Shown: piece by piece, positions 9,797-12,700 of the stretch
Layout: every line of letters begins with the position of its first letter
Numbering within the stretch: the first letter of the stretch is position 1
NCBI RefSeq assembly: GCF_056746865.1
Contig: NZ_CM163382.1
Length of the DNA: 64,000 nt
Direction: 5' to 3' (one strand)
Position numbers: made by a program

Positions 9797-12700
9797 TTAT
9801 ACATATCACTCTAAAATGTTTTTTCAATGTTACCTAAAGCGCGATTCTTTGCTAATATGTTCGATAACGAACATTTATGAGCTTTAACGAAAGTGAATGA
9901 GGGCAGCATGGAAACCAAAGATCTGATTGTGATAGGTGGCGGCATCAATGGTGCTGGTATCGCGGCAGACGCCGCTGGACGCGGTTTATCCGTGCTGATG
10001 CTGGAGGCGCAGGATCTCGCTTGCGCGACCTCCTCCGCCAGTTCAAAACTCATTCACGGTGGCCTACGCTACCTTGAGCACTATGAATTCCGCCTGGTCA
10101 GCGAGGCGCTGGCTGAACGTGAAGTGCTGCTGAAAATGGCCCCGCATATCGCCTTCCCGATGCGTTTTCGCCTGCCGCATCGTCCGCATCTGCGCCCGGC
10201 GTGGATGATTCGCATTGGTCTGTTTATGTACGATCATCTGGGTAAACGCACCAGCCTGCCGGGATCAACCGGTTTGCGTTTTGGCGCAAATTCAGTGTTA
10301 AAACCGGAAATTAAGCGCGGATTCGAATATTCCGACTGTTGGGTAGACGACGCCCGTCTGGTACTCGCCAACGCCCAGATGGTGGTGCGTAAAGGCGGAG
10401 AAGTGCTTACTCGTACTCGTGCTACTTCTGCTCGCCGCGAAAACGGCCTGTGGATTGTGGAAGCGGAAGATATCGATACCGGCAAAAAATATAGCTGGCA
10501 AGCGCGCGGCCTGGTTAACGCCACCGGCCCGTGGGTAAAGCAGTTCTTCGACGACGGGATGCATCTGCCTTCGCCTTATGGCATTCGCCTGATCAAAGGC
10601 AGCCATATTGTGGTGCCACGCGTGCATACCCAGAAGCAAGCCTACATTCTGCAAAACGAAGATAAACGTATTGTGTTCGTGATCCCGTGGATGGACGAGT
10701 TTTCCATCATCGGCACCACCGATGTGGAATACAAAGGCGATCCGAAAGCGGTGAAGATTGAAGAGAGTGAAATCAATTACCTGCTGAAAGTGTATAACGT
10801 GCACTTTAAAAAACAGCTTAGCCGTGACGATATCGTCTGGACCTATTCCGGTGTGCGTCCGCTGTGTGATGATGAGTCCGACTCGCCGCAGGCTATTACC
10901 CGTGATTACACTCTTGATATCCATGATGAAAACGGCAAAGCACCGCTGCTGTCGGTATTCGGCGGTAAGCTGACCACCTACCGCAAACTGGCTGAGCACG
11001 CTCTGGAAAAACTGACGCCGTATTATCAGGGTATTGGCCCGGCGTGGACGAAAGAGAGCGTGCTGCCGGGAGGTGCCATTGAAGGCGACCGCGACGATTA
11101 CGCCGCTCGCCTGCGCCGCCGTTACCCGTTCCTGACTGAATCGCTGGCACGTCACTACGCGCGCACTTACGGCAGCAACAGCGAACTGCTGCTCGGCAAT
11201 GCGGGAGCGATAAGCGACCTCGGGGAAGATTTCGGTCATGAGTTCTACGAAGCGGAACTGAAATATCTGGTCGACCACGAATGGGTCCGCCGCGCCGACG
11301 ATGCCCTGTGGCGTCGCACAAAACAAGGCATGTGGCTGAATGCGGATCAACAATCTCGTGTGAGTCAGTGGCTGGTGGAGTATACGCAGCAGAAGTTGTC
11401 GCTGGCGTCGTAAATTAACGTAAGGTGGCCAGGTCAGATTTCAATCTGACCTGAGACTGATGATAAACAAAAAAACTGCCTGATGCGCTACGCTTATCAG
11501 GCCTACGTGGTTTATGCAATATATTGAATTTGCATGATTTTGTAGACCAATAAGACGTTCACGTCGCATCCGGCATGGACAAAGCGCATATACAACCGAT
11601 AACCAAAGTTGTAATTCCAGAAGTGAAATACGCCTGATCATGAGCGGGATAGAGAACAGTATCTCCCCAGAAAACTCAGCGTAATAATACAAGCAGCCAG
11701 CGCAACCACCGTCGGCCATATCAAGAACGGTACAATAATAAAGCCGAGAAATACCACACCTAGCAGCAAAACACCGTGAATTTGTTCATCGCGCTAATTC
11801 CTTTCCCTCGAGGGTTATTTCATTGTGGGATACATCGGCACATAACCCATATTTTCCATCAAACTTTACCCTACCGATGGCTAAAAACGGGCTAATCCGA
11901 TTCTGCACTGACTCACACATCACTGGTATTCCACCCGCAAAACAGCCAGGGCATTATAACGACCCGCAGCAGGGCGTCGCCCTGTGGTACTTACAGGGAG
12001 AGACAGAAAAGTCACATCTGCCGTCTGAGCTGACTCAGCCCGGTTTTCAACTAACTTAAATGGCACACCAACATGCGCAGCAAGAGCGTTCAAGTCTACG
12101 GATTCCTGTTGGCTATCCATAATCATAATGCCAACGTCGGGGTTATCCTCCGCCTGAATAATGCTTTGCCGACCATTAACATCTCTCGTTGATGAAATAT
12201 TGCCATCAAAAACCAGCGTCATTACGGCATCAATATCTTTGTTCGTACAGTTTATCGGAATAGTGGTTGCCACTGGAGAAACGCCCGTGGGCTTCACTCC
12301 AGCACCAGCCCGACTTAATTCGCTGGCCCAGACATCCGGCATATTAACGGTAAAACTAGTTCCCTCATTAATTGTGCAACCTTGTGGAACTTCAATATTT
12401 AAGTTGCCAATATAAGCATTAAATACTGGAATTGGTCCGTGCTCTGTTGGAAACTGGCTGACATACAAAGAAACCAGCAATACGTTATTTATTGATATAT
12501 CGGATATTATTTTTTTATCAAGTCTGATTTTTATATAACCTTCTGTTCCTGAGGCCCAACTTGATGGTTTACTTCTGTCTGCTGGATAATTGGTGCTATA
12601 GTTGTCAAAAGGTACTGCCTTATCTGTCATTGTGCCATTTTTATTATAGAGCTTTACATGTGTCGAGACAGATATTTCATGAGTCAAAGGAATAAATATA

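What the first reader, a model, noticed from the sequence alone, without database searches (positions are those of the whole stretch)
11507..11526. Identical 20-mer spacer shared, in opposite orientation, by two distant BIME repeats
TGCAATATATTGAATTTGCA (about 11507-11526) is the exact reverse complement of TGCAAATTCAATATATTGCA at about 48629-48648, in each case sitting between two REP units. This is the conserved internal motif of one BIME class, so the two intergenic regions carry the same composite repeat in inverted orientation, a potential substrate for large inversions between 11.5 kb and 48.6 kb.
Basis: seen in the sequence. Interest (0 to 1): 0.2.

Follow-up and report, generated by a model that had tools for sequence, protein, structure and literature searches.

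The report
Two ordinary BIME-1 repeats, no inversion
The shared 20-base motif is the conserved centre of a long-known E. coli intergenic repeat (BIME-1, also called RIB or RIP, reported to bind the protein IHF). It sits in its usual place after gene ends, and none of 5,426 complete E. coli genomes shows the proposed inversion.

Summary
TGCAATATATTGAATTTGCA occurs exactly twice, at 11515-11534 (+) and 48627-48646 (-), which is 8 and 2 bases off the stated coordinates. Chance expectation is 0.01.

Each copy is the core of a 35-36 nt linker between a y-type and a z1-type REP unit. This is the defining layout of BIME-1 (RIB/RIP), whose L linker is reported to carry an IHF site. The window is E. 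coli chromosome, malP to tusA. Site 1 follows glpD; site 2 follows livF, upstream of ugpB. A third copy with a diverged linker (54430-54532, panM/livJ) was missed.

Across one genome per species, the exact 20-mer is essentially confined to Escherichia and Pseudocitrobacter. 66 of 76 instances have y 7-9 bp on one side and z1 6-7 bp on the other. None lies between divergent genes.

The inversion idea is not supported. The two elements are 85.7% identical over 105 columns, and the longest exact run is the 20-mer. The predicted junction is absent from all 5,426 complete E. coli genomes, while 5,401 keep the wild-type junction. The closer site 2 × site 3 pair also gives 0 of 5,426.

Verdict: already known, low interest.

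The parts
11478..11506 (+). Site 1, y-type REP unit. The palindrome is 11478-11502 and the CTAC tail is 11503-11506. It starts 64 nt after the glpD stop codon (11411-11413).
   Evidence: 0 differences from the y consensus GCCTGATGCGCTACGCTTATCAGGCCTAC. Invariant at the orthologous site in 4 other Escherichia genomes.
11507..11541 (+). Site 1, L linker (35 nt: 8 + 20-mer + 7). The exact 20-mer is at 11515-11534. The IHF-like core ATTCAATATATTG reads on the minus strand at 11517-11529. The 20-mer has its own TGCAA/TTGCA 5-bp inverted repeat.
   Evidence: Rfam ES036/CssrF (RF02751) matches 11499-11541 (-) at 43.6 bits against a gathering score of 37.6. The mini-hairpin forms the tip of the predicted fold.
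11542..11577 (+). Site 1, degenerate z1-type REP unit (GTAG at 11542-11545). The outer stem is broken (GACCA-AT against ATCCGGC). The inner stem is kept by a compensatory change (GACG...CGTC instead of GGCG...CGCC).
   Evidence: 6 differences from the z1 consensus. Comparison with K-12 and three other Escherichia species shows the paired G>A / C>T change.
48583..48619 (-). Site 2, z1-type REP unit. It is read on the minus strand as GTAG...GGCATG; on the plus strand it ends with CTAC at 48616-48619.
   Evidence: 0 differences from the z1 consensus. Partial Rfam naRNA4 match to the REP hairpin, 40.3 bits, below the gathering score.
48620..48655 (-). Site 2, L linker (36 nt). The exact 20-mer is at 48627-48646 on the minus strand. 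The IHF-like core ATTCAATATATTG is at 48632-48644 on the plus strand.
   Evidence: ES036 scores 28.6 bits here, below the gathering score. This 44-nt linker is 100% identical in 3,469 E. coli records.
48656..48686 (-). Site 2, y-type REP unit (palindrome 48660-48684). It lies about 60 nt downstream of the livF stop codon (livF is at 48746-49459 on the minus strand) and about 230 nt upstream of the ugpB start (48348).
   Evidence: 1 difference from the y consensus. Gene positions come (window coordinate = L002 coordinate + 33336).
54430..54532 (+). Site 3 (not in the finding): a third y-L-z1 element between the panM stop (54389) and the livJ stop (54589). Its linker (54460-54495) is diverged. 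It is in direct orientation to site 1 and inverted relative to site 2.
   Evidence: 118 nt, 84% complementary to site 2. 84.6% identical to site 2 and 79.8% to site 1. The linker is 7 mismatches from the 20-mer. The IHF-like core AATCAGTAAATTG has 1 mismatch.

Best explanation
The two 20-mers are the conserved cores of the L linkers of two separate BIME-1 elements (also called RIB or RIP). Each is a single-copy composite of a y-type and a z1-type REP palindrome in inverted orientation, separated by a linker of about 35 nt. They are resident members of a dispersed enterobacterial repeat family, with a median of about 21 recognisable L linkers per E. coli genome. They sit in 3' untranslated or intergenic DNA: after glpD, after livF, and, for the third copy, between panM and livJ. 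Shown here: the architecture, the copy number, the taxonomic range, the position at gene ends, the fold potential, and the absence of the proposed inversions. Inferred from the literature: on DNA, the linker carries the reported IHF binding site flanked by two cruciform-capable palindromes. On RNA, the y and z1 units form stable 3' hairpins, or one long hairpin capped by the linker's own TGCAA/TTGCA stem. Such structures are reported to attenuate read-through transcription and protect the upstream mRNA from 3' exonucleases. The family is thought to be spread and maintained by the REP-associated tyrosine transposase (TnpA-REP/RAYT). The sequence identity between the two sites reflects family membership and conservation of the linker. 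It does not reflect a special relationship between the two loci, and the pair does not behave as an inversion substrate in nature.
For: Exact 20-mer, not chance. The y-L-z1 layout is present at both sites. [quoted passage not shown] Of 76 instances of the exact 20-mer in species-representative genomes, 66 have y 7-9 bp to the left and z1 6-7 bp to the right. Linker length is 35 nt in 52 of 64 and 34 nt in 10. Flanking genes are convergent in 27 cases, co-directional in 16 and divergent in 0. The median is 21 L-linker matches per E. coli genome. An IHF-like core with 12 of 13 consensus positions lies inside the 20-mer. Each element folds into a long imperfect hairpin, z = -3.3 to -4.1. No canonical intrinsic terminator is found at any of the three 3' regions. 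The glpD element is orthologous, with y and the 20-mer invariant, in K-12 and three other Escherichia species. Inversion junctions: 0 of 5,426 and 0 of 5,426, against 5,401 of 5,426 for the wild-type junction. A 2026 preprint reports that REPs act as local 3'UTR terminator/stabiliser elements and do not make long-range contacts (10.64898/2026.03.23.713779).
Against: IHF binding, transcript 3' ends and mRNA stabilisation at these particular loci were not and cannot be tested with these tools. The IHF-core match has one mismatch and is not discriminating on its own: 76 such matches occur in the 64-kb window. The z1 unit at site 1 is degenerate, so that element may be partly decayed. Polarity relative to transcription is not fixed in the family (9 y-first against 7 z1-first), so any RNA-level function cannot depend strongly on orientation. 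Conservation of the 20-mer at the orthologous glpD site is only weak evidence of selection, because few lineages were compared and their flanks are still 91-94% identical.
Confidence: 0.93

Rival explanations
1. One reading: the two inverted BIME copies serve as homology for RecA-mediated inversion of the 37-kb segment between 11.5 and 48.6 kb.
For: The copies are in inverted orientation and share 85.7% identity over about 105 bp, with a 20-bp exact core. From general knowledge, REP sequences have been reported at the join points of tandem duplications in Salmonella, so REP-mediated exchange is not impossible.
Against: 0 of 5,426 complete E. coli genomes carry the predicted junction, while 5,401 carry the parental one. 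The better-matched and much closer site 2 / site 3 pair (24-bp exact run, 5.7 kb apart) also shows 0 of 5,426. From general knowledge, the longest exact run (20 bp) is at or below the roughly 23-27 bp minimal efficient processing segment reported for RecBCD recombination in E. coli (Shen and Huang 1986), and about 14% divergence triggers mismatch-repair antirecombination. The variation actually seen at these sites is segment replacement, not inversion.
Confidence: 0.03
2. The linker is a small-RNA gene (Rfam ES036 / CssrF), and the 20-mer is conserved because it forms the hairpin of that RNA.
For: RF02751 matches site 1 above its gathering score (43.6 against 37.6 bits). Its consensus structure is the TGCAA/TTGCA hairpin. 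CssrF was detected as a northern band of about 290 nt in Shigella flexneri, in the dacB/yhbZ intergenic region (PMC3071730).
Against: Site 2 scores below threshold (28.6 bits). The hairpin alone is weak (-6.9 kcal/mol, z = -1.55). The model strand is antisense to both glpD and livF. The only promoter-like match is no better than shuffles. The 43-nt model is simply a piece of a repeat that occurs at about 20 or more sites per genome, and the original band was about 290 nt from a different locus. So the hit shows repeat membership, not a gene.
Confidence: 0.04
3. The identity reflects a recent copy or gene-conversion event between these two particular loci, for example RAYT-mediated mobilisation, rather than long-term conservation of a family consensus.
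For: TnpA-REP cleaves and recombines BIME substrates in vitro (PMC3333891). The two 20-mers are identical while the adjacent linker flanks differ.
Against: The glpD element, with the same 20-mer, is present at the orthologous site in K-12, Escherichia sp. E1V33, Escherichia sp. MOD1-EC7003 and E. whittamii, so it is old. The same 20-mer is present in 3-19 copies per genome in several species and in Pseudocitrobacter. The two window copies differ at 15 of 105 aligned columns outside the core.
Confidence: 0.03

Closest known systems
BIME-1 (Gilson, Bachellier, Hofnung), also described as RIB (Boccard and Prentki 1993) and RIP (Oppenheim et al. 1993)
   Same: One y and one z1 REP unit in inverted orientation. 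A single copy per locus. A conserved linker of about 35 nt containing an IHF-consensus-like core. An extragenic position at the 3' ends of transcription units. Restricted to E. coli and close relatives.
   Different: Nothing essential. The z1 unit at the glpD site is decayed in this strain (6 differences, outer stem broken). The third copy (panM/livJ) has a diverged linker.
BIME-2
   Same: Built from REP units that include the y type. Intergenic.
   Different: BIME-2 uses z2 units and short S linkers with s/l/r flanks, occurs in tandem arrays, and is the class enriched for DNA gyrase cleavage (PMC3333891; PMC6379681). None of this applies to the two sites in the finding.
Rfam RF02751 ES036 (CssrF) sRNA
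   Same: The model consensus is the BIME-1 linker with its TGCAA/TTGCA hairpin plus the GTAGGCC start of a REP. Site 1 passes the gathering score.
   Different: Site 2 fails the threshold. The family appears to capture a repeat fragment. There is no evidence here for an independent transcript.
REPIN / RAYT systems and IS200/IS605 sub-terminal hairpins
   Same: Paired inverted REP hairpins with a conserved GTAG tetranucleotide, recognised by a Y1 HUH transposase (PMC3333891).
   Different: No RAYT gene lies in this window. The long IHF-site linker is particular to BIME-1.

Membership tests
BIME-1 (RIB/RIP) | A y-type REP unit on one side of the linker | tested here: met
   Site 1 has 0 differences and site 2 has 1 difference from the y consensus. 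Both end with CTAC 8-9 nt from the 20-mer.
BIME-1 (RIB/RIP) | A z1-type REP unit on the other side, inverted relative to y (site 2) | tested here: met
   0 differences from GTAGGCCGGATAAGGCGTTTACGCCGCATCCGGCA, 7 nt from the 20-mer.
BIME-1 (RIB/RIP) | A z1-type REP unit on the other side, inverted relative to y (site 1) | tested here: inconclusive
   It is recognisable as z1 but has 6 differences and a broken outer stem. The K-12 ortholog is less decayed.
BIME-1 (RIB/RIP) | A long, conserved L linker (not the short S linker) | tested here: met
   The linkers are 35 and 36 nt. Among 64 copies, 52 are 35 nt and 10 are 34 nt. Independent copies differ from the 20-mer by 1-4 bases.
BIME-1 (RIB/RIP) | A single copy at the locus, not a tandem array | tested here: met
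   There is one y-L-z1 unit at each of the three window sites.
BIME-1 (RIB/RIP) | An IHF binding site in the linker | tested here: inconclusive
   ATTCAATATATTG matches WATCAANNNNTTR at 12 of 13 positions. However, 76 matches of that quality exist in the window. Binding itself is not testable here and rests on the literature (PMC3333891).
BIME-1 (RIB/RIP) | An extragenic location at the 3' end of a transcription unit | tested here: met
   Site 1 is 64 nt after the glpD stop. Site 2 is about 60 nt after the livF stop. Site 3 lies between the panM and livJ stops. Family-wide, 0 of 43 copies lie between divergent genes.
BIME-2 | z2 units, a short S linker, and tandem repetition | tested here: not met
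   The units are z1-type, the linker is 35-36 nt, and each element is a single copy.
Rfam RF02751 ES036 (CssrF) | A score at or above the curated gathering threshold (37.6 bits) | tested here: inconclusive
   Site 1 scores 43.6 bits (met). Site 2 scores 28.6 bits (not met). Expression as an sRNA is not testable here.
Recombination-active inverted repeat (inversion substrate) | Both recombinant junctions observed in natural genomes | tested here: not met
   The J1 junction is in 0 of 5,426 genomes, the site 2 × site 3 junction is in 0 of 5,426, and the parental junction is in 5,401 of 5,426.

The most novel reading that the evidence does not exclude
BIME-1 elements might mark preferred boundaries for replacement of strain-specific DNA rather than inversion. 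At glpD, homology with K-12 ends 11 bp beyond the z1 unit, where an 8-kb chaperone-usher fimbrial operon replaces yzgL. At livF/ugpB, a minority lineage has a TPR-protein gene in place of the whole BIME-bearing segment. If IHF-bent, cruciform-prone BIME-1 sites systematically coincide with such swap points, they would be structural hotspots for island exchange.
Probability: 0.1. Interest if true: 0.4.

Novelty: already known. Interest (0 to 1): 0.07.

Why it matters
It matters little beyond correct annotation. The motif is a textbook feature of E. coli intergenic DNA, described in the early 1990s. The useful outcome is negative and quantitative. Two specific BIME-1 pairs in inverted orientation, 37 kb and 5.7 kb apart, have produced no detectable inversion in 5,426 complete E. 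coli genomes. Short dispersed repeats of this kind should therefore not be flagged as rearrangement substrates on sequence identity alone. The analysis also shows that the Rfam family ES036/CssrF is in effect a model of the BIME-1 linker, so hits to it should be read as repeat copies.

Tried and rejected
- Primary papers: I tried to read Boccard and Prentki 1993 (PMC413762) and Gilson 1991 (PMC333889). Neither is held, so statements about RIB/RIP copy number and IHF footprints rest on Ton-Hoang 2012 and my own knowledge.
- A literature search for 'ES036' returned only grant numbers.
- A first paper query failed on a term that was too short.
- My loose regex for y-linker-z1 pairs matched the same elements on both strands, because the y and z1 tails differ by one base. 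I therefore used only the forward-orientation variants and the length distribution.
- Promoter and terminator scans gave nothing above shuffle expectation. I do not claim an internal promoter, despite a 9-of-12 match inside the linker at site 1.
- I considered that orientation relative to transcription might be a family rule, since both sites read y, then L, then z1 for the upstream gene. I rejected this: among co-directional contexts the split is 9 to 7.
- I considered chance and rejected it.
- I could not list the roughly 25 genomes lacking an intact site 2 junction, so I could not check whether any has a rearrangement with a different partner.

Full report
**Observation.** The 20-mer TGCAATATATTGAATTTGCA occurs at 11515-11534 on the + strand, and as an exact reverse complement at 48627-48646. 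No further match exists even with three mismatches allowed. Dinucleotide-preserving shuffles expect 0.01 matches (sequences read). The 20-mer contains its own 5-bp inverted repeat (TGCAA...TTGCA). It differs from its own reverse complement at 8 of 20 positions, so its orientation is well defined.

**Context.** The window is E. coli chromosome from malP to tusA. It is 99.99-100% identical to strain 118UI (NZ_CP032515.1), except for a 1,331-bp insertion at 38425-39755.
- Site 1 lies 64 nt after the glpD stop codon (11411-11413).
- Site 2 lies about 60 nt after the livF stop (livF is at 48746-49459, minus strand) and about 230 nt upstream of the ugpB start (48348).
- Both glpD (+) and livF (-) transcripts would read the element in the same order: y, then L, then z1. 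The 'opposite orientation' on the chromosome therefore follows the strands of the upstream genes.

**Anatomy.** Site 1 consists of:
- a perfect y-type REP unit (11478-11506, ending CTAC);
- a 35-nt linker (11507-11541: 8 nt, the 20-mer, 7 nt);
- a z1-type unit (11542-11577, starting GTAG). This unit is degenerate, with 6 differences from consensus and a broken outer stem. Its inner stem is preserved by a paired G>A / C>T change.

Site 2 has a consensus z1 unit (48583-48619), a 36-nt linker (48620-48655) and a y unit with one difference (48656-48686).

The two composites are 85.7% identical over 105 aligned columns. The longest exact runs are 20, 16, 13 and 13 bases.

A third element of the same architecture lies at 54430-54532, between the panM and livJ stop codons. 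It is 84.6% identical to site 2 (24-bp exact run) and inverted relative to it. It is in direct orientation to site 1 (30-bp exact run in the y unit).

[quoted passage not shown] 2012, PMC3333891). From my own knowledge, the same elements were described as RIBs (Boccard and Prentki 1993) and RIPs (Oppenheim et al. 1993). Those papers could not be read here.

I tested the family assignment directly by scanning one genome per species (100,044 species) for the exact 20-mer.
- The scan returned 69 loci with 74 instances, 76 including the window's two.
- Apart from five stray loci, these come from Escherichia (E. coli, E. albertii, E. whittamii and two unnamed Escherichia species) and Pseudocitrobacter, at 3 to about 19 exact copies per genome.
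- In 66 of 76 instances a y unit lies 7-9 bp to the left and a z1 unit 6-7 bp to the right. Six more have z1 only, and at least one of these sits at a locus edge. Of the four instances with neither flank, three are in Gracilibacillus, a Thiotrichaceae MAG and a Rhodospirillales MAG and look like chance matches; the fourth is in Escherichia sp. MOD1-EC7003 (L062) and was not examined.
- Linker length is 35 nt in 52 of 64 copies and 34 nt in 10. Independent copies that were not selected by the 20-mer differ from it by only 1-4 bases, for example TGCAATGTATTGAATTTGCA and TGCAATCTATTGAATTTGCA.
- In the y-to-z1 frame, flanking genes are convergent in 27 cases, co-directional in 16 (9 y-first, 7 z1-first) and never divergent. 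The elements therefore sit at 3' ends without a fixed polarity. Many of these loci are orthologous between species, so the counts are not independent.
- In 5,426 complete E. coli genomes, the 44-nt site 2 linker finds a median of 21 places per genome (range 6-40; E-value limit 10). That is a lower bound for the family.

Two or three copies in 64 kb is unremarkable for such a family.

**Age.** The glpD element is at the orthologous position in K-12 MG1655 and in three other Escherichia species (Escherichia sp. E1V33, Escherichia sp. MOD1-EC7003 and E. whittamii), whose glpD flanks are 91-94% identical to the window. The y unit and the 20-mer are invariant in all of them. The z1 unit varies, including compensatory changes. 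So the identity between sites 1 and 2 reflects a conserved family consensus, not a recent copy between the two loci. The sample is too small to prove selection on the 20-mer.

**Mechanism.** Shown here:
- The linker contains ATTCAATATATTG, matching the IHF core WATCAANNNNTTR at 12 of 13 positions. By itself this is not discriminating, because 76 such matches occur in the window.
- Each element folds as a single strand into one long imperfect hairpin in which y pairs with z1. The linker's TGCAA/TTGCA stem forms the tip. Energies are -35 to -47 kcal/mol and z-scores are -3.3 to -4.1.
- No canonical intrinsic terminator lies between the upstream stop codon and the next gene at any of the three sites.

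Inferred from the literature:
- IHF binds the linker on DNA (PMC3333891).
- REP hairpins act in 3' UTRs as partial, partly Rho-dependent terminators and as barriers to 3' exonucleolytic decay. A 2026 preprint finds exactly this for REP325 and finds no long-range REP-REP contacts (10.64898/2026.03.23.713779).
- TnpA-REP/RAYT cleaves and recombines BIMEs in vitro.
- Gyrase enrichment is a property of BIME-2, not of this class (PMC6379681).

**Rfam.** RF02751 (ES036/CssrF) matches the linker at site 1 on the minus strand at 43.6 bits, above its gathering score of 37.6. It matches site 2 at 28.6 bits, below that score. The model consensus is the BIME-1 linker plus the start of a REP. CssrF was defined as a northern band of about 290 nt from the dacB/yhbZ intergenic region of Shigella flexneri (PMC3071730). 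I read the hit as repeat membership, not as evidence for an sRNA gene here. The hairpin alone is weak (-6.9 kcal/mol, z = -1.55), the model strand is antisense to both upstream genes, and no promoter signal exceeds shuffle expectation.

**Inversion hypothesis.** I built the junction that a crossover within the 20-mer would create: 800 bp ending in the glpD 3' region and the 20-mer, joined to the reverse complement of the 800 bp to the left of site 2, which carries the ugpB 5' end. I searched all 5,426 complete E. coli genomes with it.
- No genome has a place covering 80% or more of this junction. The best coverage is 54%, which is one half plus the repeat.
- The parental ugpB-BIME-livF junction, used as a positive control, is intact in 5,401 genomes.
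- The analogous junction for the closer and better-matched site 2 / site 3 pair is also absent from all 5,426 genomes.
- The per-record limit of 40 pieces was reached in many records. The two 800-bp halves are by far the best-scoring pieces, so I assume they would be retained.

From general knowledge, 20 bp of exact identity is at or below the reported minimal efficient processing segment for RecBCD recombination (about 23-27 bp). About 14% divergence also invites mismatch-repair antirecombination.

The variation actually seen at these sites is segment replacement. At glpD, homology with K-12 ends at 11588, 11 bp past z1. After that point an 8-kb fimbrial operon (11589-19594) stands where K-12 has yzgL. 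Only 226 of 5,426 genomes cover 80% or more of the 10400-12600 query, whose right end extends into that operon. At livF/ugpB, strain PS1Thumoskin9 has about 1 kb carrying a TPR-protein gene in place of the whole ~214-bp BIME-bearing segment.

**Verdict.** The structural interpretation (the internal motif of one BIME class) is correct and can be made precise: it is the BIME-1 L linker. The inversion suggestion is not supported. The feature is already known and ordinary.

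Noticed in passing
window 54430-54532: A third BIME-1-type element (y, 36-nt diverged linker, z1) lies between the panM and livJ stop codons. It is inverted relative to site 2, 5.7 kb away, and shares a 24-bp exact run with it. The finding did not mention it.
   Followed up: yes
window 38425-39755: A 1,331-bp insertion absent from the otherwise identical strain 118UI. It has a 5-bp GTAGG target duplication and two overlapping ORFs with HTH_Tnp_1 and rve domains (IS3 family; the ends look like IS2). It interrupts the Hcp1-family tssD/yhhZ-like gene.
   Followed up: yes
window 11589-19594: An 8-kb chaperone-usher fimbrial operon replaces K-12 yzgL. Its left boundary is 11 bp beyond the z1 unit of the glpD BIME-1. 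Only 226 of 5,426 genomes cover 80% or more of a query (10400-12600) that extends into this operon.
   Followed up: partly
L073 (E. coli PS1Thumoskin9) against window 48532-48745: In this strain the whole ~214-bp segment holding the livF/ugpB BIME-1 is replaced by about 1 kb encoding a tetratricopeptide-repeat protein. This is a presence/absence polymorphism of the BIME.
   Followed up: partly
L070 231-1071; also L064, L066, L069 (Escherichia sp. MOD1-EC7003): Tandem arrays of L-linker BIME units are present: 7.3 copies of a 115-bp y-L-z1 unit in L070, and arrays with spacings of about 107, 162 and 115 bp in the other three loci. BIME-1 is described as single-copy in K-12, so these are amplified or atypical forms in a non-coli Escherichia.
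   Followed up: partly
L060 (Methylobacterium frigidaeris, 261-bp contig) and L019 (Desulfosporosinus sp. OT, 262-bp contig): These tiny contigs carry y-L-z1 elements (complete in L060; the y unit in L019 is poor, 7 differences). L060 is 93% identical to the E. coli artJ 3' region, so it is very likely an enterobacterial contaminant in that assembly. L019 was not checked.
   Followed up: partly
window 36387-36451 (-): The RyhB small RNA gene (Rfam RF00057, 83.1 bits) lies between yhhX and yhhY.
   Followed up: no
window 46951-47020: A pair of inverted REP units with a short linker lies inside the ugp operon, between ugpB and ugpA. It is a different BIME type from the one in the finding.
   Followed up: no
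window 11431-11454 and 48701-48722: A short perfect hairpin sits between the stop codon and the BIME at both sites: CAGGTCAGA...TCTGACCTG after glpD, and AAGGAGTC...GACTCCTT after livF. Each is followed within one base by TGAGAC, and neither has a U-tract. The glpD hairpin is deleted in E. whittamii.
   Followed up: partly
window 52653-52952 and 54763-55062: A 300-nt direct repeat at 77% identity, corresponding to the paralogous livK and livJ genes.
   Followed up: no
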